NCBI GenBank assembly: GCA_963676565.1
Contig: OY781089.1
Span: forward strand, 2,976,001 to 3,040,000
DNA: 64,000 nucleotides
Reading direction: 5' to 3'
DNA from: Halarcobacter sp.
Lineage (GTDB): Bacteria > Campylobacterota > Campylobacteria > Campylobacterales > Arcobacteraceae
Under the pieces are notes generated by a model. It was given only the letters and a program-made list of their open reading frames with translations, did no database searches and was not told the origin of the DNA. The position numbers were made by a program, and so were the translations under genes. Positions 2,947 to 49,932 of this stretch are shown here, piece after piece (position 1 is the first letter of the stretch; each line of letters begins with the position of its first letter).

Positions 2947-2975
2947 TAAGTATTCCTAAGTTAAAGTATTTAAAA

Positions 2976-5468: not shown

Positions 5469-5469
5469 A

Positions 5470-5499
5470 AAAAAGCCGAGAAATCATTCTCGGCTTTTT
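5470..5499. terminator. Bidirectional intrinsic terminator
   Basis: AAAAAGCCGAGAA-ATCA-TTCTCGGCTTTTT between convergent genes. Confidence 0.9.
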
Positions 5500-5505
5500 A
5501 AGAAT

Positions 5506-17838: not shown

Positions 17839-17889
17839 GATAACTCCCTTTGAATTCAGTTTTATATAATACAAGTCTACTAGTAGAAA

Positions 17890-21299: not shown

Positions 21300-21308
21300 G
21301 AAGACAAA

Positions 21309-21767: not shown

Positions 21768-21979
21768 TAATCCAAATAAATTTGCAAAACTGTATATAAA
21801 TTAATATCAATTGTAACAAAAATGAAACTTTTTTTTGATAAGATATACTCTTATTTTTTATATTAAACTAATGTCTTATTTTATTTATTAATAATTAAAT
21901 TTTAAAATTTATTATTAAATGAGACATTTTTGAGACATTTTTTAGATAAAATATCCTCTTATTTTTTACAAGGAATCAG

Positions 21980-23206
21980 ATGAACATAGCAATAGCAGGG
22001 ACAGGATATGTAGGACTGTCAAATGGACTACTACTTTCTCAACATAATGATGTAATAGCTTTAGATATTATCCCAGAAAAAGTTGAGATGATAAACAATG
22101 GAATTAGTCCTATTGAAGATAAAGAGATTCAAGAGTATTTAACTAAAATACATGAAAACCCTGATTCATTTGAAGGAAGTTTTAAAGCTACTTTAGACAA
22201 AGAAGAAGCTTATAAAAATGCTGACTATGTAATTATCTCTACACCAACAGATTATGACCCTGAAACAAACTATTTTAATACAAAATCTATTGAGTATGTT
22301 ATTGCTGATGTTTTAGAAATAAATCCTAATACTACTATGGTAATAAAATCAACTATTCCTGTTGGATATACAAAAGGCATAAACGAAAGATTTAATACAT
22401 CTAACATAATCTTCTCACCAGAATTTTTAAGAGAAGGAAAAGCTTTATTTGACAATTTATATCCAAGTAGAATAATAGTTGGAGAACAATCTGAGAGAGC
22501 TACTATATTTGCAAAGCTTTTAGAGCAAGGAGCTTTAAAAAAGAACATTGATATATTATTTACTAATTCAACAGAAGCAGAAGCAGTTAAGCTTTTTTCA
22601 AATACATATCTAGCTATGAGAGTAGCTTATTTTAATGAATTAGATTCATATGCAGAAGCACATGATTTAGACAGTAAGCAAATCATTGAAGGGGTTGGAT
22701 TAGATCCAAGAATTGGAAGTCATTATAATAATCCTAGTTTTGGATATGGAGGTTATTGTTTACCTAAAGATACAAAACAATTACTTGCAAACTACAAAGA
22801 TGTACCATCAAATATAATAGAAGCAATTGTAAATGCTAACTCAACTAGAAAAGACTTTGTATCAAACTCTATAATAGAGAAGCTAAATCTTACTTCTGAA
22901 AATCCAGATAATCTACATACACAAAAAACAGTTGGTATATATAGACTTGTAATGAAAACTGGATCAGACAACTTTAGAAGTTCAGCTATACAAGGGATAA
23001 TGAAAAGAATAAAAGCAAAAGGTATTCCTGTAGTAATATATGAACCAAATTTAGACGAAGATGATTTCTTTAATTCAAAGGTTATAAAAGACTTTGAAGA
23101 ATTCAAAAAATTATCAAATGTGATAGTTGCAAACAGGCTTGATGAAAATCTTTCTTGTGTTAAAGACAAGGTTTATACTAGAGATTTATTTAGTAGTGAT
23201 GATTAA
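21980..23206 (+). CDS. ugd: UDP-glucose 6-dehydrogenase, copy 2
   Basis: Same length (408 aa) and motifs as copy 1. Four amino acid differences seen. Confidence 0.96.
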
Positions 23207-32181: not shown

Positions 32182-32547
32182 TTGAAAAGTTTATTTAGTA
32201 ACCTAAAAGAAAAAAATACTTTTATTTTCTTTTTGGTGATATTTGGAATCTTTGCAATTGCATTTGATCCAACTCATAGTGTAGACAAAGTTTTTCTTAC
32301 TAACTTTGACAAGATAAAACATATACTTGCATTTGTAGTGATTAGTTACTTTTTTGTAGAAAGTTCTATAAAACTAAAAGTGATATTAAAAATACTGATT
32401 TTAGTTTTGATAGCTTTTTTTATAGAGTATGTTCAATTTATGATTGGAAGAGAGGCTTCAGTTTTAGACTTCTTTGCTAGTATTAGTGGAGTTGGAATAT
32501 TTTTCCTAGTTAGATTTTTTGTTTTAAAAAATAAATTTACTTTTTAA
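32182..32547 (+). CDS. VanZ-like membrane protein
   Basis: DKIKHILAF..IEYVQ..GREASVLD. TTG start. Confidence 0.8.
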   Translation: MKSLFSNLKEKNTFIFFLVIFGIFAIAFDPTHSVDKVFLTNFDKIKHILAFVVISYFFVESSIKLKVILKILILVLIAFFIEYVQFMIGREASVLDFFASISGVGIFFLVRFFVLKNKFTF

Positions 32548-33679
32548 ATTTATTTTTTAAAACGATATTAAAAGGTCTTATAAGATAATACAAAAAATTT
32601 AAACTTTTTGGAAGTTTTATTACTTTGTAATCATACTCTGTAGGATGAAGCATTGATTTTAGATATTTCAATCTATATGAAGTGTTTTTCAACATAAACC
32701 ATTGAACAGATGAAATCTCTTTTGTATGGATTTTATCTGTATTTTCAAACTCTTTTATAAATCGATAATATATCTTATCTGTATTTTCAATTATTTTTTT
32801 ATCACGAGTGTTTAAATTGATATTTAAATTTATAGAAAATACTTTTTCACAGAGTAATATACTAGATAATACAACTCTATCTGCATCTATTTTTTTTGCA
32901 AGAGACAATACTTTTTCAAAATCTAAAATCTTTTTTACTATTATCAAGTTTATATCTACTAACCATTCTAGTCTTTCCCACATATGTTTATATCCATGAA
33001 TACAAAGATAGATAAAGTGAATTTCATTTGATAAGATATTTACTTCAGAATTTTTTAGTTTATATTTTTGACTAACAAAATAGTTTAATTTTTCTAAGTC
33101 CATAAAAAACTCAGCACTAGACAATGTCCAGTGTGCTTCTATGAGTATATTATTTATTTTATTCAAAAAACTTCTGTCATGTACTATATCAACTAATTTT
33201 TCTTTTTGATACTCTTCTAAATCAAAAACTTCTTCGTAATTTTCTTCAGCTAAAAGTTTTCCTAATCTATTGATATCCTTTAAGCTTACCAAAATATCTA
33301 AATCAACATATTGCCTTAGTGTTATATCATCATATGCCATTTGTGATAGAACAGGCCCTTTGAAAGCTATAGCATTTATACCATTTTCTTCCAAAAGTTT
33401 TGTAACTTTTATAAGTTCAGATGTCATAAGCATGTTTTGCTTAGCTATGTCCATATTGATTAATTTTAATCTTCTAAAAATATCTTCAGGTATAAACTCT
33501 TTAAAATTTTTGATGCTATTGTAGACTAATGGAAAAACTCCATGTTTATAAGAAAGTTCTATAAAAATATCCCAATCCTTTATTAAAAGAATCTTTTCTT
33601 TTAGTAAGTTCTGCTTTGGAATTATTTTACATGATTCTATTATTAATTCTACGTCATTTGATAATTTTTTTAGTTTTAT
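32537..33679 (-). CDS. Nucleotidyltransferase (NTP_transf_5-like); probable non-canonical ATA start
   Basis: FKGPVL..RQYVDLDILV..IEAHW..HGYKHMWERLEWLVD. The frame stays open upstream of ATG 33454 and encodes DW..HGVFPLVY. Confidence 0.82.
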   Translation of the reverse strand: MKLKKLSNDVELIIESCKIIPKQNLLKEKILLIKDWDIFIELSYKHGVFPLVYNSIKNFKEFIPEDIFRRLKLINMDIAKQNMLMTSELIKVTKLLEENGINAIAFKGPVLSQMAYDDITLRQYVDLDILVSLKDINRLGKLLAEENYEEVFDLEEYQKEKLVDIVHDRSFLNKINNILIEAHWTLSSAEFFMDLEKLNYFVSQKYKLKNSEVNILSNEIHFIYLCIHGYKHMWERLEWLVDINLIIVKKILDFEKVLSLAKKIDADRVVLSSILLCEKVFSINLNINLNTRDKKIIENTDKIYYRFIKEFENTDKIHTKEISSVQWFMLKNTSYRLKYLKSMLHPTEYDYKVIKLPKSLNFLYYLIRPFNIVLKNKFKK

Positions 33680-33856
33680 TTTTTTGCCTTTGAAAAATCT
33701 AATTAGATACTATCAAATTATATTAAAAAATAAAATAAAAACTCAAAAACTTACTAATAAAAAATATACAGATTTATTACCTTATTGTAATACTTTTAAG
33801 ATATACTTCCATCTTATTTAAGTATAATACGCAAAATTATTAAAAAGGTAAACTAA

Positions 33857-35041: not shown

Positions 35042-35236
35042 ATGAGTTTAGATGAAATAAAAAAATTAGATGTAAAAGATAGAATCATTTTAATGAATGA
35101 AATCTGGGCTACTTTAGAAGAAGAAGATAGTAATATTGAATCTCCATCTTGGCACAAAGAAGTTTTAGAAGAAAGACTTCAAAAACTTGATAACAATAAA
35201 GCAGAATTTATCTCACTTGAAGACTTAAAAGCTTAA
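35042..35236 (+). CDS. Addiction-module antitoxin component
   Basis: 64 aa; L..DRI.LM..IW..L...SPSWHKEVLEERL. Overlaps the toxin start. Confidence 0.82.
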   Translation: MSLDEIKKLDVKDRIILMNEIWATLEEEDSNIESPSWHKEVLEERLQKLDNNKAEFISLEDLKA

Positions 35237-35559
35237 TGAATATAAAAAACATAATAGCTTTAAAAGAAGTTTCAAATGATTTGAAATTAGGCGAAGAATT
35301 TTATGAAAAACAAAATCATGGATTGGGTTCATACTTTAAAGATAGCATAATATCTGACATAGAGTCTTTATGGCTTTATGGAGGAATTCATCAAAAAGTA
35401 TTTGGTTTGTATCGATTGCTTTCTAAAAGATTTCCGTATGGAATTTATTATGTCATCAAAGATGAAACAGTTATAGTAGTAGCTATTCTTGATTTAAGAC
35501 AAAACCCTAAAAAAATTTCTTCATATTTAAATAATAGAAATACTAAAAAAGAATATTGA
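35236..35559 (+). CDS. RelE/ParE-family toxin
   Basis: [30 protein letters not shown]. Confidence 0.82.
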
Positions 35560-39859: not shown

Positions 39860-39880
39860 AGAACCCATATTTTGGGTTCT
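39860..39880. terminator. Hairpin terminator between manB and the PqqD gene
   Basis: AGAACCCA-TATTT-TGGGTTCT, with an A-run on the left that serves as the U-tract on the minus strand. Confidence 0.7.
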
Positions 39881-39886
39881 AAAGTG

Positions 39887-40159
39887 TTATGAGATAGTAA
39901 TCAAACCTTTGTTTGCTACTTCTTGAATAAAATTTAAAATATCATTTTCAACTTGTTTTTCATCCACCTCATAATTTGAGATTATCTCTTCTTTTACTTT
40001 ATTTAAATCTTTTTTTTCTTCTAAAGTTTCCCAAATAAAAGTTCCAATCTCATTTATAGAAAAATACTCATTGGTATTACTATCAAGTAAAATTGTTTCA
40101 TCATCTACTTTTTGTAAAAAAAGTGTATCTGGTATATTTATTTTTGTATCTAGTGTCAT
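39887..40159 (-). CDS. Stand-alone PqqD-family RiPP recognition element
   Basis: 90 aa; VDDETILLD..YFSINEIGTFIW..YEVDEKQVENDILNFI..KGLI is the typical lasso B1/PqqD pattern. Confidence 0.92.
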   Translation of the reverse strand: MTLDTKINIPDTLFLQKVDDETILLDSNTNEYFSINEIGTFIWETLEEKKDLNKVKEEIISNYEVDEKQVENDILNFIQEVANKGLITIS

Positions 40160-40162
40160 ATT

Positions 40163-41020
40163 TTATATTACCTTTTTATTTTTTATAAATTTTACAATAG
40201 CTTGATAAACCTCTTCAAGTCTATTTAAATCCCAAGGAATAGTTATATCATATATATCTACTTTATTTGCTATATTTGTCAAAGCTTTAAATCTTTGTTT
40301 TTTATGAATAGGCAAATCTATTTCTGTGGAATATCTTATAATCTTAAATTTATCAATTCCTAAAGTTTGTGAAACTTTTATTTCACATAGCGGATCAGAT
40401 TTTATTAAATTTAATATACAATTAATTGGTTTAGATTCTTCTGCAAAATTCTCTACAAATAATCCTAAATCTTCCATTTTACGATAAGGTCTATGATATG
40501 GATATGAAGGTACAGAAAAAATCATATTATCTTTTTCAAAAGTTGCTACTTTATCATCAGATATCATAGTATGACCTTTTTTTATAAAGAAATCTGTTAA
40601 GGTAGATTTTCCACCAAATGAATTTGCTACAAACAAAACTGAGGTATCTTCAATCTCCACAGCCCCGGCATGTAAGAAATAATACTTGTTTTCAAAGGTA
40701 AGTAGTATGGGGAAATAGGTATGTTTCAACCAATAGTCTACTAATTTATCTGTAGTTCCATCCGCTTTTGAGTATGTTATTAGATTAGAGTTGATTTTAC
40801 TTGAAAAAGTAACAACATCTCTAACTGTGAAACTTATTATTTGATTAGATTCTATTCTAGAGAAAGGTTTTTCACTTTGAATAAAAACTTCTCTAAGCTG
40901 ATTATTGTGAAGTTCTATCTTATAATTGAGTTTATTAGTAGAAGTTTGTTCTTCTACTAATGTGTATCTATTAGGACTCTGTTTTTTATTTATTTCTAAA
41001 TGGTATCCAAATAAATACAT
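40163..41020 (-). CDS. HPr-kinase-related P-loop kinase
   Basis: LHAGAVEI..ANSFGGKST..ISDD. Confidence 0.85.
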   Translation of the reverse strand: MYLFGYHLEINKKQSPNRYTLVEEQTSTNKLNYKIELHNNQLREVFIQSEKPFSRIESNQIISFTVRDVVTFSSKINSNLITYSKADGTTDKLVDYWLKHTYFPILLTFENKYYFLHAGAVEIEDTSVLFVANSFGGKSTLTDFFIKKGHTMISDDKVATFEKDNMIFSVPSYPYHRPYRKMEDLGLFVENFAEESKPINCILNLIKSDPLCEIKVSQTLGIDKFKIIRYSTEIDLPIHKKQRFKALTNIANKVDIYDITIPWDLNRLEEVYQAIVKFIKNKKVI

Positions 41021-41042: not shown

Positions 41043-41264
41043 CTAGTTAAATGAACTTCTTCTTATTCCACCTCTATCATCATTTGATGGATCAGTACCA
41101 GGTCCAGTTACTGAAGTAGAAGTATCTCTATTTACAGTATTACTTGCTGCTGCTGATGTAGGGATTGTCATTGAACCTAAAGCAACTATTGCAGGTGCTG
41201 CATATGCTGCTTTTTTTAGGAAACTTCTTCTGCTGTTTTTATTTTCTTCTACAATTTTATCCAT
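41043..41264 (-). CDS. Small peptide with twin-arginine and YxxP motifs; candidate RiPP precursor
   Basis: 73 aa with GGAG RBS; SRRSFLKK-AAYAAPAI, AAA site and Ser/Thr/Asp/Gly-rich tail. First gene ahead of the kinase and RRE. Confidence 0.8.
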   Translation of the reverse strand: MDKIVEENKNSRRSFLKKAAYAAPAIVALGSMTIPTSAAASNTVNRDTSTSVTGPGTDPSNDDRGGIRRSSFN

Positions 41265-41294
41265 TTTATATTCTCCAAAATTTTTTATAATGGC

Positions 41295-41303: not shown

Positions 41304-41476
41304 TAAAAACTTTCTAATAATATTAGAAGTTACTTAAAAAATATACAGCTACGTTATAATGTTATTTTTGTAACTATTTTGTAACTTTAAAATTTTAGCT
41401 ATTTTTTAGACAGTTTTATTTGATATTTAATAACTCATTGTGTTATGATAACAAAAAAATTTATAAAAGGATGTTT

Positions 41477-42277
41477 ATGGGGTTAAAGATAAAATCTATT
41501 TTTACTTTCTCTATTCTAATTGCTTTATTCAGTGGTTGTAGTCTAAAAGATTATAAACTTTTCCAAGAAGGTAATCTAGATATTGAAGAAACTACTGTTG
41601 TTGAAAAAGAAGAATATTATCAAGAAATGGCATTTGAGAATATAATCGCTCCAAATGATAGAGTTGATGTTACAGTTTATATTCAAGCTGGTCAAGGTAG
41701 TCAACAAATGACTTCGATTCTTACTAGTAGAGATGTAAACAATAGTAATACAATTCAAGAAAACATTGGATTACTTGTTACTAGAAAAGGAAGTGTTAGA
41801 CTTCCATTACTTGGAAGTGTAAATATTGCAGGGCTAACGCAAGATGAAGCTTCTAATTATCTAATTAAAGAATACAAAAAATTTATCAGAAACCCATATG
41901 TAATCGTTGAAATCAAAAACCAAAGAGTTATCGTAATAGGTGAAGTAAAATCGCCAGGTATCGTTCCAGTTACAAATGGTACAATGAATGTAATTGAAGC
42001 TATTGCAAGGACTGGTGACTTAACAGATATGGCATCTAGAAACAATATCAAAGTTATTAGAGGTGATTTAAGAAATCCTAAAGTTAGAACTATTAACCTT
42101 ACAAGAATGGATGAATTATCTGTTTCAAGTTTATACTTAAAACCAAACGATATATTATATGTACAACCTAGAAATCTTAAAGGTTATAATAGAGCATTTA
42201 ATGATATCAACCCATTTTGGAATATGTTATCTAGTATCCTAGATCCACTAAACCAAAGAAAAACTCTTATAGAATAG
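41477..42277 (+). CDS. wza: Wza-like polysaccharide export lipoprotein
   Basis: Lipobox LFSGC, Poly_export motif GSVRLPLLG..AGLT, SLBB motif VIGEVKSPG. Start placed at ATG 41477, after AAGGA and TGTTATGAT. Confidence 0.9.
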   Translation: MGLKIKSIFTFSILIALFSGCSLKDYKLFQEGNLDIEETTVVEKEEYYQEMAFENIIAPNDRVDVTVYIQAGQGSQQMTSILTSRDVNNSNTIQENIGLLVTRKGSVRLPLLGSVNIAGLTQDEASNYLIKEYKKFIRNPYVIVEIKNQRVIVIGEVKSPGIVPVTNGTMNVIEAIARTGDLTDMASRNNIKVIRGDLRNPKVRTINLTRMDELSVSSLYLKPNDILYVQPRNLKGYNRAFNDINPFWNMLSSILDPLNQRKTLIE

Positions 42278-42294
42278 TATAAGGGTTATCATTA

Positions 42295-44652
42295 ATGGAA
42301 CAAAATAAATATATACAACATACAAATGATGAAATAGATTTAAAACAAGTATTTAAAACCATTCTTAAATACAAGTTTTTTATCTTTTTTACGATTTTAA
42401 TATTTACTATAGGTTCAGCTGTATTTGCTTATGTTAAGCCAAATATCTATTCTTCTTCTGCAACTATTGAAGTAAAAGAGGAAGAAAGAGGTTGGAACAC
42501 AAGTTCAGCACTAAAAGAAGCATTTAGTGGAACTGGAGTTAATATAGAAAATCAAATTGAAGTTTTTAAATCAAAGTTTTTAGCTGATAGAGCAGCTAGT
42601 TACTTAAATCTTGGGACAAGATATTTTACAAAAAATAACTATAGAACATATGAGTTCTATCAAAATTCTCCTTTTGTTGCTACAAAAGAGTTTATAGATG
42701 ATGAATTCTACAATAAAACTTTTTATATACAACCTTTATCAAAAGATACTTTTAAACTAATTATTAAACCTAGTAACAAATGGTCAAAGTCTGGGATTTT
42801 AGATCTATTAGGTGTTAGAAAATTTGAGGACATAGATCTTTTTAAGTATGAAAAAATCCATAAATATAATGAAGAGATAAAAACACAATGGTTTAATATA
42901 AAAATTCAAAAGATTAGTGAACTAGAAGAAAGTGAATATTCTTTTTATTTTGTTCATGAGTCTTCATTTGTAGACTACTACTATAATTTATCAATTGAGC
43001 AAGTTTCTGAATTTGCGAGTGTATTAAGACTTTCTATTTTAGATACTGTTTCAACTAGAGCAAAAGATCTTTTAAATGCTATGTTAAAGGCATATAGAGA
43101 TCAAGAAAGAGAAAGAAAAAATGAAACAGCAAACTTATCTTTAGACTTTATTGATTCTCAACTTGAAGAGATAAATAAAAGACTTAAGGCTTCAGAGGGA
43201 AAACTTGAAGAGTATAAAGAGACTAACGAAGTAATTGATTTATCACAAAAAGCAAAAATGACTTCAGAAAAATTAACTGATTATGAAAGTAAACTTCAAG
43301 AGATATCAATAGAACAAAATATCTTAAAAAATTTACAACAATATATCAATAAAAATCACAATTTATCTGGTCTAGCAGTTGGATCAATAAGCTTTGCTGA
43401 TCCTTCATTATCAAATATGGTTAAAAACTTAACCGAGTTATCAAATCAAAGAGATAACTTACTTATTGATTATACAGAGTTACACCCTGATATTGTAAAA
43501 CTTAGTCAATCAATTGCAACACTAAGAAGAAATATTAAAACTGTTTTAAGTAATAACTTAAATCAAATAGCACAAAGAAAAGCTTCTTTAGAATCTTTGA
43601 TTAGACAATATACAAAATCTTTAGAAACACTTCCTCAACAAGAAAAAGAGCTAACAAGACTTACAAGATATTTTTCTGTAAATGAAAAAGTATATTCATA
43701 TTTACTTGAAAAAAGAGCTGAAACAGCTATCTTAAAATCATCTACAATCTCTAATTCAAGAGTATTGGATGAAGCATTAAATTACCCTATTCCTGTTAAA
43801 CCAAAAAGAATGTTAATAGTTTTAGTTGGTATGATATTAGGTGGAATTGTTGGTATTGCTTACGCATTTTTAAGAGAGTTTTTAAATGATACAGTTAAAA
43901 ATACAGAGGAAATTGAAAGATATAGTTCAATTCCAATTTATGGTGTTGTTCCTCTTAATAAAAACAAAAAAACAAAAAATATCTTCCTTGAATCATTTAG
44001 GTCAATTAGAACAAACTTACAGTTCTTGCCACAAACAGAATCAAGTAGAGTTATTACAGTAACTTCTTCTGTATCAGGAGAAGGGAAAACAACTGTTGTT
44101 GCAAAAATTGCTGAAATAATAGGTCAAACAAATAAAAAGGTTGTTGTTTTAGATATAGATATGAGAAAAGCTAGTGTTCATAAAGAGTTTGATGTAGATA
44201 ATGTTATAGGATTAAGTAATTATCTAACTGGACAAAATACACTAAAAGATGTAATCTCTAAAACAGAGTCTGAAAATGTTGATTTAATTACTACAGGGCC
44301 TCTTCCTCCAAATCCTTCAGAATTGATTTTATTAGATAACATGAAAACCTTAATTGAAGATTTAAAAGAGGAATATGATTATATTATTATAGATACGCCA
44401 CCTGTTGGTCTTGTAACAGATGCACTTATTCTTATGAACTATGCAGATATTTCATTTGTATTAGTTAGAGCTGATTACACGAGAAAAGAGTTTATCAAAA
44501 ACCTTGATAGACTAGCGCGTGAACACTCACACAATCATATTGGTATGATTTTAAATGGTGTTGAAATTGGTGAAAAATATGGATACGGTTATGGTGTAAG
44601 TTATGGATATGGTTACGGAAATGACAAATATTATAAAGATAGACCTAGTTAA
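42295..44652 (+). CDS. wzc: Wzc polysaccharide copolymerase / tyrosine autokinase
   Basis: DEIDL, two TMs, GEGKTT, DIDMRK, IIDTPP, C-terminal Tyr cluster YGYGYGVSYGYGYG. Confidence 0.96.
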   Translation: MEQNKYIQHTNDEIDLKQVFKTILKYKFFIFFTILIFTIGSAVFAYVKPNIYSSSATIEVKEEERGWNTSSALKEAFSGTGVNIENQIEVFKSKFLADRAASYLNLGTRYFTKNNYRTYEFYQNSPFVATKEFIDDEFYNKTFYIQPLSKDTFKLIIKPSNKWSKSGILDLLGVRKFEDIDLFKYEKIHKYNEEIKTQWFNIKIQKISELEESEYSFYFVHESSFVDYYYNLSIEQVSEFASVLRLSILDTVSTRAKDLLNAMLKAYRDQERERKNETANLSLDFIDSQLEEINKRLKASEGKLEEYKETNEVIDLSQKAKMTSEKLTDYESKLQEISIEQNILKNLQQYINKNHNLSGLAVGSISFADPSLSNMVKNLTELSNQRDNLLIDYTELHPDIVKLSQSIATLRRNIKTVLSNNLNQIAQRKASLESLIRQYTKSLETLPQQEKELTRLTRYFSVNEKVYSYLLEKRAETAILKSSTISNSRVLDEALNYPIPVKPKRMLIVLVGMILGGIVGIAYAFLREFLNDTVKNTEEIERYSSIPIYGVVPLNKNKKTKNIFLESFRSIRTNLQFLPQTESSRVITVTSSVSGEGKTTVVAKIAEIIGQTNKKVVVLDIDMRKASVHKEFDVDNVIGLSNYLTGQNTLKDVISKTESENVDLITTGPLPPNPSELILLDNMKTLIEDLKEEYDYIIIDTPPVGLVTDALILMNYADISFVLVRADYTRKEFIKNLDRLAREHSHNHIGMILNGVEIGEKYGYGYGVSYGYGYGNDKYYKDRPS

Positions 44653-44662
44653 TAGGTCTTCT

Positions 44663-45415
44663 TTATACTAACTTATAATTTTTAATTCTATTATTTTCAA
44701 ATAATTTGTGAGTTTCTTTTGCAAAAACTGCTTTGCTAAATGAATCTAAATACTTCTCTCCATGTATATCACTACCAACAAAATCAATAAGTCCATTGTC
44801 AGATAAATATTTTGCAGCAGCTTTTGGTTTTTTACCATAAAAACCAATTAAAGAATTGAGATTTATTTGAAACCTAACACCACTTTGTTTTAATTTATCA
44901 TATTTTGAGAAGTTTGATGAAAAATATGAATATCTCTCAGGATGAGCTAAAATAGGTCTATACCCTTTTGAAAGTAAATTAAAGATAGTTTGCTCTAAGC
45001 CAAAGGGTTTATTTGTATAAGAAAGTTCAAATAAAACGTATTTGTCTTTTCCAAAATATAATAAGTCATCATTTTCAATAAGTTCTAAAAAATTTTCATC
45101 AAAATAGTACTCTGCAGAAGCAATAAGTTCTATATCTATATTTCTATTTTTTAGTTCTTGTTTAAGTTTTTCACAACCATCTAGAATAATCTCTTTTGTA
45201 TTTGGAAATCTATGGGCCATAATATGTGGAGTTGTGATAATCTTATTAAATCCAAGTTTTTTTATACCTTGGATAATTTGTATTGATTCATCTAAAGTTT
45301 TTACACCATCATCAATCCCAGGGATTAGATGAGAGTGTAAATCTGTGGTATAGAATTCAGGTTTATAGTCTTTTGATTTTTTTTCAAAAATTGAACTAAA
45401 AAGTTTTTTAACCAA
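44663..45415 (-). CDS. CpsB/CapC-type PHP tyrosine phosphatase
   Basis: DLHSHLIPGIDDG, TPH, AHPERY, GSDIH. Confidence 0.93.
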   Translation of the reverse strand: MVKKLFSSIFEKKSKDYKPEFYTTDLHSHLIPGIDDGVKTLDESIQIIQGIKKLGFNKIITTPHIMAHRFPNTKEIILDGCEKLKQELKNRNIDIELIASAEYYFDENFLELIENDDLLYFGKDKYVLFELSYTNKPFGLEQTIFNLLSKGYRPILAHPERYSYFSSNFSKYDKLKQSGVRFQINLNSLIGFYGKKPKAAAKYLSDNGLIDFVGSDIHGEKYLDSFSKAVFAKETHKLFENNRIKNYKLV

Positions 45416-45459: not shown

Positions 45460-48400
45460 TTAAATTACTGTAATATCCTGATCAATAAGAAGTTTTAAAG
45501 TTTGATTACTACTATCAGTATAAGTATATTCTTCATAACCGTCTGCTGTTGGTGTTGAATTACCCCAAATAGTTGAATCTAATGCAATTTTATCTGAACT
45601 ATCTCCATCTATTTTTAATTCATTATCATCTGAGATTGCTAAGAAGTTATCAATTGAAAGATTTGATAATATATGCATTCCATCTTCAGTTAAATCAATT
45701 GATTCTACTTTTGCACCACTAGCAGATTCTAAAATTTCTAACATATTATATAATCCTGCATCACTTGAAGAAATATCTCCTAAAGTTACTGAATTATTAG
45801 AAATTGAAACTCCTGGATTCTCTCCATTAATATCTAATGTTACTTCTTCTACATTACTTTGGTTCCCATCTGGGTCTGTTACTAGTACATTAAATTTTGC
45901 TGTTATACTTTCACCTAAATCTAATCCATCTACTTCTTCTGAGTATACATACAAGTCACCCTTTTGCGCTCCAAATTTTGTTACTAAATCTGCAAAGTCA
46001 CCATCTAAATCTGCTTGTGTTAATTGAATTACACCATTTGTTGTTGAACTTGTTATATCTCCTGTTTCATCTGCAAAGCTTGAACTATCTCTTACTAATG
46101 ACAATCCAAATTCACTATCCTCTGCATCTTCTACTCCTAACATTGCTAGTAATGCTGATGCTGATATTACTGTCTCATAGTTTGACACTGGTCCATAATC
46201 TGCAAATGATGTCTCATTTATTGTGATTGTTGGTGCTACTGTGATTACTGGTGCTTCATCTACTCCATTAATATCTAATGTTACTTCTTCTACATTACTT
46301 TGGTTTCCATCTGGGTCTGTTACTAGTACATTAAATTTTGCTGTTATACTTTCACCTAAATTTAATCCATCTACTTCTTCTGAGTATACATACAAGTCAC
46401 CCTTTTGCGCTCCAAATTTTGTTACTAAATCTGCAAAGTCACCATCTAAATCTGCTTGTGTTAATTGAATTACACCATTTGTTGTTGAACTTGTTATATC
46501 TCCTGTTTCATCTGCAAAGCTTGAACTATCTCTTACTAATGACAATCCAAATTCACTATCCTCTGCATCTTCTACTCCTAACATTGCTAGTAATGCTGAT
46601 GCTGATATTACTGTCTCATAGTTTGACACTGGTCCATAATCTGCAAATGATGTCTCATTTATTGTGATTGTTGGTGCTACTGTGATTACTGGTGCTTCAT
46701 CTACTCCATTAATATCTAATGTTACTTCTTCTACATTACTTTGGTTTCCATCTGGGTCTGTTACTAGTACATTAAATTTTGCTGTTATACTTTCACCTAA
46801 ATTTAATCCATCTACTTCTTCTGAGTATACATACAAGTCACCCTTTTGCGCTCCAAATTTTGTTACTAAATCTGCAAAGTCACCATCTAAATCTGCTTGT
46901 GTTAATTGAATTACACCATTTGTTGTTGAACTTGTTATATCTCCTGTTTCATCTGCAAAGCTTGAACTATCTCTTACTAATGACAATCCAAATTCACTAT
47001 CCTCTGCATCTTCTACTCCTAACATTGCTAGTAATGCTGATGCTGATATTACTGTCTCATAGTTTGACACTGGTCCATAATCTGCAAATGATGTCTCATT
47101 TATTGTGATTGTTGGTGCTACTGTGATTACTGGTGCTTCATCTACTCCATTAATATCTAATGTTACTTCTTCTACATTACTTTGGTTTCCATCTGGGTCT
47201 GTTACTAGTACATTAAATTTTGCTGTTATACTTTCACCTAAATTTAATCCATCTACTTCTTCTGAGTATACATACAAGTCACCCTTTTGCGCTCCAAATT
47301 TTGTTACTAAATCTGCAAAGTCACCATCTAAATCTGCTTGTGTTAATTGAATTACACCATTTGTTGTTGAACTTGTTATATCTCCTGTTTCATCTGCAAA
47401 GCTTGAACTATCTCTTACTAATGACAATCCAAATTCACTATCCTCTGCATCTTCTACTCCTAACATTGCTAGTAATGCTGATGCTGATATTACTGTCTCA
47501 TAGTTTGACACTGGTCCATAATCTGCAAATGATGTCTCATTTATTGTGATTGTTGGTGCTACTGTGATTACTGGTGCTTCATCTACTCCATTAATATCTA
47601 ATGTTACTTCTTCTACATTACTTTGGTTTCCATCTGGGTCTGTTACTAGTACATTAAATTTTGCTGTTATACTTTCACCTAAATTTAATCCATCTACTTC
47701 TTCTGAGTATACATACAAGTCACCCTTTTGCGCTCCAAATTTTGTTACTAAATCTGCAAAGTCACCATCTAAATCTGCTTGTGTTAATTGAATTACACCA
47801 TTTGTTGTTGAACTTGTTATATCTCCTGTTTCATCTGCAAAGCTTGAACTATCTCTTACTAATGACAATCCAAATTCACTATCCTCTGCATCTTCTACTC
47901 CTAACATTGCTAGTAATGCTGATGCTGATATTACTGTCTCATAGTTTGACACTGGTCCATAATCTGCAAATGATGTCTCATTTATTGTGATTGTTGGTGC
48001 TACTGTGATTACTGGTGCTTCATTACCACCATTTACTGTTAATGATATAGTTGATGAATCTACTAATATACCATCTGATACTTGATAATCAAAATTTATT
48101 TCTAGTTTTTCATTTGGTGTTAATAAATTAAAATATGGACTATTTAAAGTATATGTACCATCACTTTGCACATCTATACTTAAAACATTATTTGTCTGTA
48201 AAAGATCAACATATTTTTCACTTATAACACCCTCAATAGTAAGCTTTCCTGTTGTCAAATCAATATTAACTGGAGCTAAATTATTTAAATAAGTTATTGC
48301 ATCATTTATTGTTGTTGTAGGATCTAAAAGATAGGCTTCAATCTCTTGTAACTTTTGACTATCATCAATTACTGCTGATACTAAAGGATTACTTACAAGT

Positions 48401-49932
48401 TCTAAAAAATAAGTTTTTAAAACTTGTGTAAATTCAGGGCTAGGATTGTTTAATGCAGATACAATTGACATATTTGTTGTACTTAATGAAATATTTAAAT
48501 TTCCTGCATATGAATATTCGATATCATCACCATTTACATCAGTTGCATTCCCTGCCACACTTCCTGTAAAATTGTAATCTACAATCTCTGTTCCACCAAT
48601 TGTCACATCATTTAAATCATTCTCTTCTACTATATTTGATTCTTCTGTTGAAACGGGTGCATCGTTTGAAGTAAACTTATTTTCTAAATTTTCTACTTGA
48701 ACTCTTTGAATCTCAGCCATTGTTGCAAATGGGTCTAGAGCATTAATAGATTCTTCAACTTGTACATTAATATTAGCAATACTTGATGAAATCCCTTCAA
48801 AATCTAAAGTTGGATTATCATTTGTAATTTCTCTCATAAATATTTCAATATCAGCAGAATTAGATAAATCAAATTGAGGATTATTTTGAAGAATTTGTGC
48901 TAAATAATCAAAAGCCAATAATGATGCATCTGCTTCACTTCCCCCTTCTAAATTACTAAATAAAGCTGCACTTAAATTAACTAAGTTTGCAATTTGTACA
49001 GCAACAATTTGAACTTGTGGATTTTGTTCTTGGATAGGATCATAATTTAACAAATCAATATTTGTATCCAATCCAAAAGTAGTTGCAATTAAATCTTCTG
49101 CTTCACTTTCAGTTAAACCATCTTTTACAAGCTCATGCAATAGTGTACTTAAAGGTGAAACTGTTGTTGAGCCAGTAGGAGCAGTATAGAAGCCTTCAAA
49201 TGGTAATCCAGTAGAGATATCTGTTCCACCAAAAGCTACAATTGGTCCTGCATCTAATTCAGTTTGTGTTAATCCAGTAAAACTAAAATCCCCATTTGCA
49301 TCTGTTGTAGTAGAGTTCTCACCAATGTCTAAAGAACCATTATTGTTTGCATCAATAAAAACTGTTGAACCTGCAATATATCCATCAATTAGTTTTCCTG
49401 AATATAATATAGAAGAAATACCTGTTTCGTCATTGTTTTGATTTAAATTAACAAATAAAGGAAGAAATCCATTTTGTGTAAGTTCATTGTCAATATCTAA
49501 TCTTCCTGCAAGTGTAGGAGTATTATCAAATGTTAGTTCATTATTTTGAGTTGGATTTTGAGTTCCATCACCTTGAGTAATAACTTCGCCCCCAGCAGCT
49601 GAAGCTTCAAGTGCACTTGCTAAATCAGAAATACTATAAGTATTTTCTGTATCAGTTTGAATTAATTTAATTAGATCAGAACCATCATTTGAATTAAGAA
49701 TTTCTACCATCCCTTTTAAAACTATTTTAAAAGTTTGTGCATTATCATTAAATGTTAAAGTTAAGTCTTCTCCATTATTTGTAAGTTCTGACTTATAAGA
49801 TATATCAGAAGACAATTCGATATTTATTGTCTTGCCTTTTTGGAAATCTCTTAAAATCAATTCATTAATGTCATTCTTTGACATAAGATTTTCTAAATTT
49901 ATACTTTTTTCATATTTTTCTATTGATAACAT
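45460..49932 (-). CDS. Second T1SS-type repeat adhesin (1,490 aa)
   Basis: N-terminal LEASAAGG, a DGYIAGSTVFIDANNNG domain, five 147-aa repeats, and a C-terminus similar to that of the giant adhesin. Confidence 0.88.
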   Translation of the reverse strand: MLSIEKYEKSINLENLMSKNDINELILRDFQKGKTINIELSSDISYKSELTNNGEDLTLTFNDNAQTFKIVLKGMVEILNSNDGSDLIKLIQTDTENTYSISDLASALEASAAGGEVITQGDGTQNPTQNNELTFDNTPTLAGRLDIDNELTQNGFLPLFVNLNQNNDETGISSILYSGKLIDGYIAGSTVFIDANNNGSLDIGENSTTTDANGDFSFTGLTQTELDAGPIVAFGGTDISTGLPFEGFYTAPTGSTTVSPLSTLLHELVKDGLTESEAEDLIATTFGLDTNIDLLNYDPIQEQNPQVQIVAVQIANLVNLSAALFSNLEGGSEADASLLAFDYLAQILQNNPQFDLSNSADIEIFMREITNDNPTLDFEGISSSIANINVQVEESINALDPFATMAEIQRVQVENLENKFTSNDAPVSTEESNIVEENDLNDVTIGGTEIVDYNFTGSVAGNATDVNGDDIEYSYAGNLNISLSTTNMSIVSALNNPSPEFTQVLKTYFLELVSNPLVSAVIDDSQKLQEIEAYLLDPTTTINDAITYLNNLAPVNIDLTTGKLTIEGVISEKYVDLLQTNNVLSIDVQSDGTYTLNSPYFNLLTPNEKLEINFDYQVSDGILVDSSTISLTVNGGNEAPVITVAPTITINETSFADYGPVSNYETVISASALLAMLGVEDAEDSEFGLSLVRDSSSFADETGDITSSTTNGVIQLTQADLDGDFADLVTKFGAQKGDLYVYSEEVDGLNLGESITAKFNVLVTDPDGNQSNVEEVTLDINGVDEAPVITVAPTITINETSFADYGPVSNYETVISASALLAMLGVEDAEDSEFGLSLVRDSSSFADETGDITSSTTNGVIQLTQADLDGDFADLVTKFGAQKGDLYVYSEEVDGLNLGESITAKFNVLVTDPDGNQSNVEEVTLDINGVDEAPVITVAPTITINETSFADYGPVSNYETVISASALLAMLGVEDAEDSEFGLSLVRDSSSFADETGDITSSTTNGVIQLTQADLDGDFADLVTKFGAQKGDLYVYSEEVDGLNLGESITAKFNVLVTDPDGNQSNVEEVTLDINGVDEAPVITVAPTITINETSFADYGPVSNYETVISASALLAMLGVEDAEDSEFGLSLVRDSSSFADETGDITSSTTNGVIQLTQADLDGDFADLVTKFGAQKGDLYVYSEEVDGLNLGESITAKFNVLVTDPDGNQSNVEEVTLDINGVDEAPVITVAPTITINETSFADYGPVSNYETVISASALLAMLGVEDAEDSEFGLSLVRDSSSFADETGDITSSTTNGVIQLTQADLDGDFADLVTKFGAQKGDLYVYSEEVDGLDLGESITAKFNVLVTDPDGNQSNVEEVTLDINGENPGVSISNNSVTLGDISSSDAGLYNMLEILESASGAKVESIDLTEDGMHILSNLSIDNFLAISDDNELKIDGDSSDKIALDSTIWGNSTPTADGYEEYTYTDSSNQTLKLLIDQDITVI
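45823..48023. repeat. Five near-identical 441-bp (147-aa) intragenic tandem repeats
   Basis: Antisense ORFs recur at 45897, 46338, 46779, 47220 and 47661 (period 441). Confidence 0.97.

What the first reader, a model, noticed from the sequence alone, without database searches (positions are those of the whole stretch)
41043..41264. Precursor leader that merges a Tat signal with an RRE-binding YxxP motif
Seen: SRRSFLK is a full Tat consensus. It is followed directly by YAAPAI, a hydrophobic stretch and SAAA|S. The remaining 33 aa (SNTVNRDTSTSVTGPGTDPSNDDRGGIRRSSFN) are polar and Ser/Thr-rich. Known: lasso RREs bind YxxPxL, and Tat exports substrates after cytoplasmic maturation. Inference: the RRE may hold the signal until modification is complete, and Tat plus signal peptidase may replace the missing transporter and protease.
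Basis: partly seen in the sequence, partly recalled or inferred. Interest (0 to 1): 0.85.

Follow-up and report, generated by a model that had tools for sequence, protein, structure and literature searches.

The report
Tat-signal leader on phosphopeptide precursor
A small gene in a slime-capsule locus encodes a peptide whose export signal also looks like the docking site for a peptide-modifying chaperone and kinase, which suggests a large, undescribed group of modified peptides that leave the cell by the general Tat export route.

Summary
ORF 41043..41264(-) encodes 73 aa with SRRSFLK, then KAA, then YAAPAI, a hydrophobic stretch, AAA|S and a 33-aa polar tail. An HPr-kinase-like gene and a lasso-B1-type PqqD (RRE) follow on the same strand.

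The combined motif recurs. All 68 unique homologous precursors I collected carry YxxP, with RR (or KR in four of the 65 standard-register ones) 8-9 residues upstream. 65 of 68 have an [ASVT]xA site, and the cores are hypervariable and hydrophilic. A profile search found 1433 cluster representatives. Of 18 well-flanked loci, 17 have the kinase and 15 have kinase plus PqqD.

The closest published system is the Linear Polyphosphorylated Peptides of Bacillota (Popov 2026), also in polysaccharide loci. That system uses a dedicated SipW-like peptidase and an MsbA-like pump. Neither is at this cassette, and the genome search found no SipW-type peptidase. The genome does have TatA, TatB-like, TatC and LepB.

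Best reading (about 0.55): an LPP-like phosphopeptide whose leader is a working Tat signal.

Export, cleavage, phosphorylation and the proposed RRE hold on the signal are inferred, not shown. The complex prediction gave only weak support (0.50; best control 0.02). I found no publication describing this.

The parts
41043..41264 (-). Precursor peptide gene (73 aa): Tat-type leader plus a hypervariable polar core
   Evidence: ORF and translation. TIGR01409 scores 18.2 bits against a cut-off of 16.7. 27 homologues. 1433 representatives at E<=0.001.
41273..41276 (-). Shine-Dalgarno GGAG, 8 nt upstream of the ATG
   Evidence: Read from the sequence.
41214..41234 (-). Twin-arginine motif SRRSFLK (residues 11-17)
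   Evidence: Position counts over 65 precursors in the standard register: first position R61/K4, second R 65/65, F 65/65, L 61/65, K 65/65.
41187..41204 (-). YAAPAI (residues 21-26): a lasso/LPP-type RRE recognition motif Y-x-x-P-x-[VIL] inside the signal's h-region
   Evidence: Y and P are present in 68 of 68 unique precursors, and [VIL] follows at +2 after P in 65 of 65. Motif definition from PMC13381572.
41145..41153 (-). A38-A39-A40: predicted signal peptidase I site (AxA|S41)
   Evidence: [ASVT]xA lies 19-38 residues after the first R in 65 of 68 precursors (a crude rule and not SignalP). Cleavage itself is inferred.
41046..41144 (-). Predicted core, 33 aa, starting at S41. It is polar, Ser/Thr-rich, and hypervariable among homologues
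   Evidence: Across the family, core median mean hydropathy is -1.06, and 0 of 68 cores contain a hydrophobic 9-mer.
40163..41020 (-). HPr-kinase-like kinase (285 aa), 22 nt downstream of the precursor gene
   Evidence: PF07475 scores 26.6 bits (below gathering score 33.3) and TIGR04352 scores 24.4 bits (cut-off 200). The P-loop GGKS and the GH..ISDD motif align to HprK/P structures 2qmh and 1jb1.
39887..40159 (-). Discrete PqqD-family RRE (90 aa), lasso-B1 type
   Evidence: PF05402 scores 65.1 bits. Profile against PDB: TbiB1 5v1u at 3.6e-18, PbaB1 9x90, TfuB1 6jx3, LppB 9x8z at 1.9e-10. N36, D73 and F77 align with LppB N33, D70 and F74.
39860..39880 (-). Terminator-like hairpin plus T-run that ends the three-gene unit
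   Evidence: 2 terminator-like sites found in the region against 0.3 expected.
32537..33691 (-). PF14907 nucleotidyltransferase (the LppN/PsmN type), 6.2 kb from the cassette in the same polysaccharide locus. It has no ATG/GTG/TTG at the expected start; ATA stands there instead
   Evidence: 180.9 bits. The same family sits directly after PqqD in L010, L011 and L017, and next to the cassette in L021.
41420..45415 (.). Context: divergent wza-like exporter (41420..42277 +), Wzc-like tyrosine autokinase (42295..44652 +) and CpsB-like phosphatase (44663..45415 -)
   Evidence: wza lies beside the cassette in four congeners and in 9 of 18 well-flanked loci.

Best explanation
The ORF is the precursor of an LPP-like (linear, phosphorylated) ribosomal peptide, and its leader peptide is itself a twin-arginine signal peptide. 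The proposed sequence of events has four steps.

1. In the cytoplasm the PqqD-type RRE binds the Y21-x-x-P24-x-I26 segment. This segment lies inside the hydrophobic region of the signal.
2. The RRE presents the peptide to the HprK-like kinase. The kinase phosphorylates, possibly polyphosphorylates, a serine at or just after the signal-peptidase site; S41 is the candidate. The PF14907 nucleotidyltransferase elsewhere in the locus may decorate the product further.
3. Once the RRE releases the signal, the TatABC system exports the small, unstructured, hydrophilic peptide.
4. The housekeeping signal peptidase LepB cuts after A38-A39-A40 and frees a roughly 33-aa modified peptide into the periplasm. 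There it acts in or on the Wza/Wzc polysaccharide machinery next to which it is encoded.

What is shown: the gene anatomy, conservation of the merged motif, co-occurrence with the kinase and RRE, retention of the RRE residues that hold Tyr and Pro in LppB, the presence of TatA, TatB-like, TatC and LepB, and no genome hit for B2-type or SipW-type peptidase models.

What is inferred: binding, the phosphorylation site, Tat dependence, cleavage, the order of events, and the function.
For: Anatomy: the precursor, kinase and PqqD lie on one strand with gaps of 22 and 3 nt. There is a GGAG site before the first gene and a terminator-like hairpin after the last.

Tat features:
- TIGR01409 scores above its cut-off.
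- The motif resembles about 20 other Tat-type N-termini of this genome, such as those of molybdoenzymes and hydrogenase.
- TatC (241 bits), TatA (73.5 bits), a TatB-like gene and LepB (136.7 bits) are present.
- An [ASVT]xA site occurs in 65 of 68 precursors.
- Cores are 10-122 aa (median 30) with a median hydropathy of -1.06. None of 68 has a hydrophobic 9-mer.
- That core profile is within what the review PMC6708511 reports Tat to tolerate: unstructured hydrophilic segments of 100-120 aa, with export blocked by a short hydrophobic stretch (passages).

RRE features:
- YxxP occurs in 68 of 68 precursors.
- The PqqD is closest to lasso B1 proteins with solved leader complexes.
- It keeps N36, D73 and F77 at the positions of LppB N33 (fixes the Pro kink), D70 (hydrogen-bonds Tyr) and F74.
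- Complex prediction, PqqD against precursor residues 1-50: score 0.50 (three runs, 0.49-0.50), best of three controls 0.02, verdict 'weak support'.
- Its calibration: the mark was reached by 116 of 157 solved complexes and 2 of 215 mismatches. At 0.60 or under it was reached by only 18 of those 157 and by both mismatches.
- The runs agree in at least 95% of contacts and partner pLDDT is at least 54. Like complexes are solved, so the pass may reflect likeness.

Linkage:
- Of 18 unique loci with at least 1.5 kb on both sides of the precursor, 17 have a kinase homologue within 4 kb and 15 have kinase plus PqqD.
- Four congeners have the identical layout beside wza.

Precursor behaviour: the leader is invariant and the core hypervariable. 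One to three precursors occur per locus.

Kinase: the P-loop and catalytic GH..ISDD motif are conserved.

Candidate phosphosite: a Ser lies within the first four residues after the crude cleavage site in 48 of 68 precursors. In LPP the phosphosite is core Ser3 (PMC13381572).

No dedicated protease or pump: the genome gave 0 hits for PF13471 (B2) and 0 for TIGR02228 (SipW type). BLAST with L019's ABC transporter and B2 proteins found them in none of the 18 well-flanked loci.
Against: - Nothing here shows export, cleavage or phosphorylation.
- The generic Tat model is borderline. Only 8 of 68 family members reach the TIGR01409 cut-off, and 26 of 68 are listed at E<=0.05.
- The first arginine is K in 4 of the 65 standard-register unique precursors (six loci) and in 6 of 140 representatives.
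- The kinase is below the Pfam gathering score (26.6 against 33.3).
- The complex prediction is only 'weak support' and gave no contacts, so it does not show that YxxP is the contact.
- Three of the 18 well-flanked loci lack a recognisable PqqD: L015, L040 and L047. L047 also lacks the kinase.
- In the Sulfurovum-type loci the 87-aa ORF before the kinase is not PqqD-like by hhalign.
- One Sulfurovum contig, L019, carries an ABC exporter and a B2-type peptidase right after the kinase. That would be redundant with Tat and LepB if they serve the same peptide.
- In G029 the best precursor-like match and the kinase homologue are on different contigs.
- The nucleotidyltransferase here has no canonical start codon.
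- A phosphorylated Ser at +1 of a LepB site might hinder cleavage; this is unknown.
Confidence: 0.55

Rival explanations
1. The peptide is a kinase/RRE-modified precursor, but the N-terminus acts as a Sec signal or as an uncleaved membrane anchor rather than a Tat signal. The peptide is then threaded or anchored by Sec/YidC, and the RR merely sits in a positively charged n-region.
For: Most family members score below the TIGR01409 cut-off (60 of 68). KR variants exist. The h-region of about 17 residues has a mean hydropathy of 1.43, which I cannot assign to Tat or Sec without a trained predictor. RiPP precursors with Sec or lipoprotein signals are already known: bufferins and oxazolins (PMC12452194, passages) and DybA (PMC13056109, passages).
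Against: The whole Tat consensus, not only RR, is close to invariant: [S/x]-R-R-x-F-L-K with F 65/65, L 61/65 and K 65/65. This matches the genome's own Tat substrates. A Sec n-region has no need for F-L-K. Cytoplasmic modification before export fits Tat better than the rapid Sec route; this last point is inference.
Confidence: 0.15
2. The leader is only an enzyme-recognition sequence. RRxFLKK-AAYxxP as a whole is the docking site for the RRE and kinase. The product stays cytoplasmic or leaves by some other exporter, and the resemblance to a Tat signal is a relic or a coincidence.
For: In LppA, leader residues beyond YxxP are conserved although they do not touch the RRE, and the authors suggest they serve the modifying enzymes (PMC13381572). 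One related contig, L019, has its own ABC exporter and a B2-type peptidase next to the kinase.
Against: A conserved AxA-type site in 65 of 68 precursors has no role in a purely cytoplasmic leader. Neither does an uncharged h-region, nor cores free of hydrophobic stretches in 68 of 68. No exporter or protease was found in the 18 well-flanked loci with the queries used. The genome also has no B2-type or SipW-type peptidase.
Confidence: 0.12
3. The ORF is an ordinary small Tat-exported periplasmic protein of the polysaccharide locus. The kinase and PqqD act on something else, and YxxP is a chance feature of the h-region.
For: The product has no detectable family beyond the Tat model. The locus is full of envelope genes.
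Against: YxxP is invariant in 68 of 68 precursors while the mature part is hypervariable, which is the reverse of an ordinary protein. 17 of 18 well-flanked loci have the kinase. Only 1 of 33 Tat-like N-termini in this genome has YxxP. The RRE keeps its Tyr- and Pro-holding residues.
Confidence: 0.06
4. The cassette is a decayed lasso-peptide cluster that has lost its cyclase and B2 protease and no longer works.
For: The RRE is lasso-B1-like. A congener, G017, has three HprK-like kinases in different contexts, one with an adjacent PqqD ORF. The nearby nucleotidyltransferase lacks a canonical start.
Against: All three genes have intact frames, and the layout is conserved across families and at least two proteobacterial-type lineages. 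The family is large, with 1433 representatives, and its leader is under strong purifying selection.
Confidence: 0.04

Closest known systems
Linear Polyphosphorylated Peptides (LPP) of Bacillota: LppA/K/B/S/D/N (Popov et al., Nat Commun 2026, PMC13381572; introduction, three results sections and discussion read)
   Same: It is cyclase-less. It has a discrete lasso-type RRE, an HprK-like kinase and a PF14907 nucleotidyltransferase. The precursor has a conserved YxxPx[V/I] leader and a highly variable core of 35-200 aa, and there are one to three precursors per cluster. It is embedded in polysaccharide loci. The leader is removed by a signal-peptidase-type cut. A Ser close to the start of the core is the phosphosite (Ser3 in LppA).
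   Different: The window's genome has no SipW-like LppS and its cassette has no MsbA-like LppD. The rest of the LPP leader motif (VLxHQxIxFETxxS) is missing, and a full twin-arginine motif precedes YxxP instead. The hosts are Gram-negative (Campylobacterales; Gammaproteobacteria MAGs for a second gene order), whereas the paper calls LPP 'restricted to the Bacillota'. The RRE profile scores higher against TbiB1 (69 bits) than against LppB (44 bits), so an independent origin from lasso B1 is likely.
Phosphorylated lasso peptides (paeninodin type; pseudomycoidin/Bsf type). These are named in PMC13381572; the details of PadeK and PsmK/PsmN are recalled, not checked here
   Same: A B1-type RRE plus an HprK-like kinase (plus nucleotidyltransferase) acting on a [Y/W]xxP leader.
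   Different: There is no B2 peptidase in the genome and no cyclase in the cassette. The product would be linear. The leader carries an export signal.
Redox-enzyme maturation proteins (TorD, DmsD, NapD) of the Tat pathway
   Same: If the reading is right, the function is the same: a cytoplasmic protein binds the h/c-region of a Tat signal peptide and delays export until maturation is done. [quoted passage not shown]
   Different: There is no homology. Here the binder is a PqqD/RRE winged-helix protein. The cargo is a small unstructured peptide, not a cofactor enzyme. The 'maturation' is phosphorylation.
RiPP precursors with general-secretion signals: bufferins/oxazolins (Sec, SPase I) and DybA (lipoprotein pathway)
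   Same: A general export signal takes the place of a classical leader, and housekeeping peptidases release the product (PMC12452194; PMC13056109).
   Different: Those use Sec or lipoprotein signals with MNIO enzymes. According to PMC12710340, the DUF2063-associated RREs paired with DUF2282 precursors have no specific recognition motif in the signal. Here the signal is Tat-type and contains the RRE motif. None of the three papers contains the words Tat or twin-arginine.
NCBIfam 'HPr-rel-A system' (TIGR04352 HprK-related kinase A, TIGR04353 PqqD family chaperone)
   Same: The same pairing of an HprK-like kinase with a PqqD chaperone. The second (PqqD-precursor-kinase) gene order found in Gammaproteobacteria MAGs and metagenomes scores 48-85 bits on TIGR04352 and 27-29 bits on TIGR04353.
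   Different: All scores are below the curated cut-offs of 200 and 35. The window's kinase scores 24.4 bits, and its PqqD does not hit TIGR04353 at E<=0.1. No NCBIfam model exists for the precursor.

Membership tests
Twin-arginine (Tat) signal peptide | Consensus S/T-R-R-x-F-L-K in the n-region | tested here: met
   S11-R-R-S-F-L-K17. TIGR01409 scores 18.2 bits, at or above the 16.7 cut-off. Across the family, 8 of 68 reach the cut-off.
Twin-arginine (Tat) signal peptide | Uncharged h-region followed by a c-region with a small-x-small peptidase site | tested here: met
   A19..P35 is uncharged, followed by A38-A39-A40|S41. [ASVT]xA occurs in 65 of 68 precursors. This is a crude rule, and no SignalP/TatP was available.
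Twin-arginine (Tat) signal peptide | Tat translocase and signal peptidase I present in the host | tested here: met
   TatC 241 bits. TatA 73.5 bits, and a TatB-like gene upstream of tatC. LepB 136.7 bits.
Twin-arginine (Tat) signal peptide | Export depends on RR and on TatC | not testable with these tools
   Needs RR-to-KK and tatC mutants with cell fractionation.
LPP (linear polyphosphorylated peptide) clusters | Discrete RRE that binds a YxxP leader through a Tyr-holding Asp and a Pro-kink Asn | tested here: met
   D73 is invariant and N36 is present in at least 90% of 12 RREs. They align without gaps to LppB D70 and N33, and F77 aligns to F74. Binding itself: weak support, 0.50 against 0.02.
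LPP (linear polyphosphorylated peptide) clusters | HprK-like kinase adjacent to the precursor | tested here: met
   40163..41020, with the P-loop and GH..ISDD motif conserved. The Pfam score is below the gathering threshold.
LPP (linear polyphosphorylated peptide) clusters | SipW-like SpI leader peptidase (LppS) | tested here: not met
   TIGR02228 gave 0 hits in the 99.97%-complete genome, while the control found it in B. subtilis.
LPP (linear polyphosphorylated peptide) clusters | MsbA-like exporter (LppD) in the cluster | tested here: not met
   The 29 ORFs I scanned between window positions 766 and 52364 include no ABC transporter near the cassette. The only one is a C39-ABC at 766..2946, beside an outer-membrane factor and a 4122-aa ORF.
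LPP (linear polyphosphorylated peptide) clusters | PF14907 nucleotidyltransferase (LppN) | tested here: inconclusive
   Present at 32537..33691 (180.9 bits), but 6.2 kb away and without a canonical start codon.
LPP (linear polyphosphorylated peptide) clusters | Leader consensus YxxPxVLxHQxIxFETxxS | tested here: not met
   Only Y-x-x-P-x-[VIL] is shared. The remainder is replaced by a signal h/c-region.
LPP (linear polyphosphorylated peptide) clusters | Polyphosphorylation of a core serine | not testable with these tools
   Needs mass spectrometry. A Ser lies within the first four core residues in 48 of 68 precursors.
Lasso peptide clusters | B2 cysteine peptidase (PF13471) and a macrolactam cyclase | tested here: not met
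   PF13471 gave 0 hits in the genome. The three-gene unit has no cyclase gene. I did not run a genome-wide search for the cyclase.
NCBIfam HPr-rel-A system | Kinase at or above 200 bits on TIGR04352 and PqqD at or above 35 bits on TIGR04353 | tested here: not met
   The kinase scores 24.4 bits, and TIGR04353 gives no hit at E<=0.1.
Tat REMP chaperones (TorD/DmsD/NapD) | Homology to the TorD or NapD families | tested here: not met
   The only Pfam hit above its curated cut-off for the 90-aa protein is PqqD. The likeness is functional only, and it is inferred.

The most novel reading that the evidence does not exclude
The twin-arginine signal peptide is itself the RiPP leader. A PqqD-type RRE works as a signal-peptide-binding proofreading chaperone, a non-homologous analogue of TorD or NapD. 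It masks the h-region until the HprK-like kinase has (poly)phosphorylated the serine at the signal-peptidase site. TatABC then exports an unstructured phosphopeptide, and LepB releases it into the periplasm, where it takes part in Wza/Wzc capsule or slime assembly. This would be the first Tat-dependent class of ribosomal natural products and the first Tat 'maturation chaperone' outside cofactor enzymes. It would define a family of more than a thousand sequence clusters in Campylobacterales, Gammaproteobacteria and, by earlier unchecked notes of this scan, several other phyla.
Probability: 0.35. Interest if true: 0.85.

Novelty: new variant of a known kind. Interest (0 to 1): 0.72.

Why it matters
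RiPP pathways normally carry their own leader protease and exporter. Sec-signal precursors were only recently recognised and are called highly unusual (PMC12452194).

A leader that is both a Tat signal and an RRE docking site would show a new way of coupling cytoplasmic peptide modification to general export. It would give Tat a class of small, unfolded, modified cargo. It would also give RRE domains a second role as export gatekeepers.

The finding extends the phosphopeptide class described in 2026 for Bacillota to Gram-negative bacteria, again inside polysaccharide loci. That strengthens the untested idea that these peptides act in capsule or biofilm biology.

The family is large, with 1433 representatives, and neither Pfam nor NCBIfam has a model for it. 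A simple precursor model could therefore annotate many orphan small ORFs.

The proposal is directly testable with three genes in E. coli.

Tried and rejected
- RNA evidence: no RNA holder was listed for the stretch. Four RNA runs sharing a species label with the DNA holders X3-X6 (organism B) laid 0 reads. This is no test of expression.
The result is 'weak support' with no contacts, so it cannot say which leader residues touch the RRE.
- A hidden PqqD in the Sulfurovum-type loci: the 87-aa ORF before the kinase in L046 shows no likeness to the RRE profile (hhalign probability 0.5%).
- Pfam gave nothing for the 532-aa and 260-aa proteins that follow the precursor in L015, nor for the 250-aa homologue in L019.
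- Membership in the NCBIfam HPr-rel-A families: rejected on score.
- A lasso peptide reading: rejected, because the genome has no B2 peptidase and the cassette has no cyclase.
- Lasso-leader model NF033521: one weak hit only, 13.9 bits against a cut-off of 19, on one of 68 precursors.
- Literature: I ran six searches.
  - HPr kinase / PqqD / twin-arginine.
  - RiPP / Tat signal / leader peptide / precursor peptide.
  - twin-arginine + RiPP (67 papers, of which the 25 listed describe no such system by title and abstract start).
  - linear polyphosphorylated / HprK / RRE.
  - bufferin / signal peptide / RiPP.
  - a Tat search.
  None turned up a description of a Tat-signal RiPP leader or of this cassette. 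Supplementary data of PMC13381572 (its lists of clusters) were not opened and could contain non-Bacillota members.
- Earlier notes of this scan: nothing for this genome or this sequence.
Full report
**1. Observation**

The minus-strand ORF 41043..41264 encodes a 73-aa peptide. It contains:
- S11-R-R-S-F-L-K17
- K18-A-A20
- Y21-A-A-P-A-I26
- V-A-L-G-S-M-T-I-P35
- T-S-A-A-A40
- a 33-aa polar tail from S41

The one correction is that three residues separate the Tat motif from YAAPAI.

A GGAG lies 8 nt upstream of the ATG. The generic Tat model TIGR01409 scores 18.2 bits against a cut-off of 16.7. Pfam has no family for the peptide.

**2. The gene unit**

Two genes follow on the same strand.
- 40163..41020 starts 22 nt downstream of the precursor and encodes a 285-aa HPr-kinase-like protein. 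PF07475 scores 26.6 bits, below the gathering score of 33.3. TIGR04352 scores 24.4 bits against a cut-off of 200.
- 39887..40159 starts 3 nt after the kinase gene and encodes a 90-aa PqqD-family protein. PF05402 scores 65.1 bits, and NCBIfam lasso_PqqD_Bac scores 56 bits against a cut-off of 80.

A terminator-like hairpin with a T-run follows at 39880..39860.

The kinase aligns to solved HprK/P structures across the P-loop and the catalytic GH..I(A/S)DD segment.

The unit sits in a roughly 27-kb polysaccharide locus. That locus contains nucleotide-sugar genes, a flippase, a polymerase, glycosyltransferases, and gmd/fcl/manC/manB. The cassette is transcribed divergently from wza- and wzc-like genes.

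A PF14907 nucleotidyltransferase (180.9 bits) lies 6.2 kb away on the same strand at 32537..33691. It has no ATG, GTG or TTG at the position where its homologues start; ATA stands there.

**3. The merged motif is a family trait, not chance**

- A word-based search gave 27 small proteins, and 12 leader positions are invariant among them: R12 R13 F15 L16 K17 K18 A19 A20 Y21 P24 L29 G30. The C-terminal halves do not align.
- Scans of genome and metagenome collections with the leader pattern gave 12 and 55 loci.
- After removing duplicates I had 68 unique precursors including the window's. All 68 have YxxP. In 65 of them Y is the 10th and P the 13th residue counted from the first arginine. The other three are one residue shorter.
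- Within those 65, the first position is R in 61 and K in 4. The second R, F, the first K, Y and P are 65 of 65. The residue two after P is V, I or L in 65 of 65.
- A profile of the 68 found 1433 cluster representatives at E<=0.001 and 103 at E<=1e-10 in a library of 1.84 billion. All 150 listed are 48-141 aa long.
- Of the 145 that were new to the session, 140 carry the full combined motif (134 RR, 6 KR). The other five differ only at the second lysine.
- In this genome only 1 of 33 Tat-like N-termini has YxxP.

**4. Linkage to the enzymes**

Four congeneric genomes carry the same precursor-kinase-PqqD unit beside wza. Their kinases are 53-70% identical to the window's.

Among 18 unique loci with at least 1.5 kb on both sides of the precursor:
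- 17 have a kinase homologue within 4 kb.
- 15 have kinase plus PqqD.
- 7 have PF14907 by BLAST. L021 makes an eighth by Pfam.
- 9 have wza.

The exceptions are L015 and L040 (Sulfurovum type, kinase only) and L047 (nucleotidyltransferase only).

Three gene orders occur:
- precursor-kinase-PqqD(-PF14907) in Campylobacterales
- PqqD-precursor-kinase in Gammaproteobacteria MAGs and many metagenome contigs
- a Sulfurovum type, with unknown 250-530-aa proteins next to the precursor

Several loci carry two or three precursors with the same leader and unrelated cores (L011, L012, L016, L017, L050).

In an even sample of 401 genomes of the phylum, the precursor profile hit 16. Hits were concentrated in three families (7/20, 5/19, 2/34) and absent from the two largest (0/118, 0/158). 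The weakest hits may be ordinary Tat signals.

**5. The RRE**

The profile of 12 PqqD proteins from these loci matches:
- TbiB1 (5v1u) at 3.6e-18
- PbaB1 (9x90) at 1.6e-12
- TfuB1 (6jx3) at 1.7e-11
- LppB (9x8z) at 1.9e-10

The alignment to LppB has no gaps.

Popov et al. report three key contacts in LppB. D70 hydrogen-bonds the leader Tyr. N33 fixes the kink at Pro. F74 separates the two pockets. With a constant offset these fall on D73 (invariant), N36 (present in at least 90%) and F77 of the window protein.

A two-chain prediction of PqqD against precursor residues 1-50, both as alignments, gave these results:
- The score was 0.50 in three runs (0.49-0.50).
- The best of three controls was 0.02.
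- The tool's verdict was 'weak support'.
- In its calibration the mark was reached by 116 of 157 solved complexes and 2 of 215 mismatches.
- Scores of 0.60 or less were reached by only 18 of those 157 and by both mismatches.
- The runs agree in at least 95% of contacts, and partner pLDDT is at least 54.
- No contacts were given.
- Like complexes are solved, so the pass may only reflect likeness.

**6. The signal**

The genome has TatC, TatA, a TatB-like gene and LepB. It has about 20 other Tat-type N-termini with the same RRxF[LI]K flavour.

A small-x-A site lies 19-38 residues after the first arginine in 65 of 68 precursors. This comes from a crude rule of my own, not a trained predictor.

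The cores are G/N/P/S/T/D-rich and 10-122 aa long, with a median of 30. None of 68 contains a 9-residue window with mean Kyte-Doolittle hydropathy above 1.6.

The review PMC6708511 (passages read) makes two relevant points. Tat tolerates unstructured hydrophilic segments of 100-120 aa, and a short hydrophobic stretch blocks export. [quoted passage not shown]

Against this, only 8 of 68 precursors pass the TIGR01409 cut-off. KR variants exist as well. From memory, KR occurs in some natural Tat signals; I did not check this.

**7. What is missing**

The genome (99.97% complete, one contig) gave no hit for the lasso B2 peptidase family PF13471. It also gave none for archaeal/SipW-type signal peptidase TIGR02228. 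Both searches worked on control genomes.

There is no ABC exporter at the cassette. BLAST with the ABC and B2 proteins of L019 found them in none of the 18 well-flanked loci.

L019, a Sulfurovum contig, does carry both right after its kinase. This remains an unexplained counter-example.

**8. Comparison with what is known**

Popov et al. 2026 (PMC13381572) describe Linear Polyphosphorylated Peptides in Bacillota. I read the introduction, three results sections and the discussion. Their system has these features:
- Precursors of 35-200 aa with a conserved leader YxxPxVLxHQxIxFETxxS and variable cores.
- The HprK-like LppK, which puts several phosphates on core Ser3.
- The discrete RRE LppB.
- A SipW-like peptidase, LppS, that needs the RRE and prefers the phosphorylated precursor.
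- An MsbA-like pump and a PF14907 transferase.
- Frequent location inside capsular polysaccharide loci.

The paper calls the class restricted to Bacillota. It contains no occurrence of 'Tat', 'Gram-negative', 'Proteobacteria' or 'signal peptide'.

The window's cassette shares the RRE, the kinase, the transferase, the YxxP leader, the variable core and the polysaccharide context. It fails the tests for LppS, LppD and the rest of the leader motif.

I therefore file it as working like LPP but not as a member of that family. The RRE is closer to TbiB1 than to LppB, which suggests a separate origin.

A Ser lies within four residues of the predicted cut in 48 of 68 precursors:
- (G)S in the Campylobacterales group
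- x-x-G-S in the PqqD-first group
- F-G-x-P-P-S-x-P in the Sulfurovum group

The distance from Tyr to that Ser is 16-21 residues, against 18 in LppA. This is my count and is suggestive only.

RiPP precursors with Sec or lipoprotein signals are known and are described as highly unusual. I found none with a Tat signal in six literature searches.

**9. Earlier notes of this scan**

A word search returned eight listed of nine AI notes from other genomes. They describe Tat-like small precursors beside PqqD, HprK-like and PF14907 genes in Gemmatimonadota, Verrucomicrobia-type bacteria, an actinobacterium and others. One of them also names LPP as the closest known system and points to a serine just after the cleavage site.

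These notes are unchecked leads, not independent evidence. They agree with what I found and suggest the design reaches beyond the two lineages I sampled.

**10. Verdict**

The most likely mechanism is an LPP-like phosphopeptide pathway that has handed export and leader removal to TatABC and LepB, with the RRE binding inside the signal peptide.

My confidence in each element is:
- about 0.85 that the ORF is the substrate of the kinase/RRE pair
- about 0.65 that the leader is a working Tat signal
- about 0.55 for the whole chain
- about 0.35 for the gatekeeping idea, that the RRE holds the signal until modification is done; it is attractive, resembles TorD, and is untested

**11. Limits**

- There is no expression data.
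- No trained signal predictor was available.
- The cleavage and phosphosite rules are my own crude ones.
- Co-occurrence was scored by BLAST with a handful of queries, so absences are 'not found with these queries'.
- The supplementary tables of the LPP paper were not opened.

Noticed in passing
window 32537..33691 (-): The PF14907 nucleotidyltransferase has an open frame of 390 aa but no ATG, GTG or TTG until residue 86. ATA stands where homologues (L010, L011, L017) have their Met, preceded by AAAGG. It is either a rare ATA start or a start-codon loss.
   Followed up: partly
window 35042..35559 (+): A two-gene toxin-antitoxin-like pair is inserted between gmd and fcl in the GDP-fucose operon. 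It consists of a PF09720 'addiction module component' of 64 aa plus an overlapping 107-aa ORF with no Pfam hit.
   Followed up: no
window 20073..23206 (+): Two 408-aa UDP-glucose/GDP-mannose dehydrogenase genes with almost identical Pfam scores flank a 152-aa FHA-domain protein (21309..21767). FHA domains bind phosphothreonine (recalled, not checked here), which is curious in a locus that encodes a peptide kinase. No link was tested.
   Followed up: no
window 45460..49932 (-): A 1490-aa ORF with five near-identical tandem repeats of about 147 aa (441-nt period, visible in the translation and in the repeated antisense ORFs). It has no Pfam hit at 1e-5 and lies next to the Wzc/CpsB genes.
   Followed up: no
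window 766..17874 (-): A 4122-aa ORF with a C39-domain ABC transporter and an outer-membrane efflux protein beside it. This looks like a type I secretion set for a giant adhesin and is unrelated to the cassette.
   Followed up: no
L007, L008, L009 (congener G017): One congener has three other HprK-like kinases (26-29% identical) in different contexts. One has a 90-aa ORF that reads like PqqD upstream (not scanned against Pfam). Two are followed by 275-279-aa proteins with a YPKSGNTW-type N-terminus, which I recall as sulfotransferase-like. These may be true lasso-type clusters. I did not scan them against Pfam.
   Followed up: no
L015, L019, L032, L038, L040, L046: This is a Sulfurovum-type variant. 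The precursor core is very short and ends in a conserved F-G-x-P-P-S-x-P-x-W segment. Neighbours are unknown 250-530-aa proteins (one a Kelch/beta-propeller protein of 930 aa) and, in L038, L040 and L046, atpB. No PqqD was recognisable. L019 adds an ABC exporter and a B2-type peptidase.
   Followed up: partly
L021, L068/L069, L079, L070: In the PqqD-first loci, some cores are pure short repeats, such as (D/N/G)NRPP repeated four to six times or Q/N/G runs. They resemble proline-rich periplasmic or surface peptides.
   Followed up: no
L013 (record titled Paenisporosarcina MAG): This 2.9-kb contig carries a precursor and neighbours almost the same as the Sulfurovum contig L015. The contig is probably mis-binned rather than a Bacillota example.
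   Followed up: no
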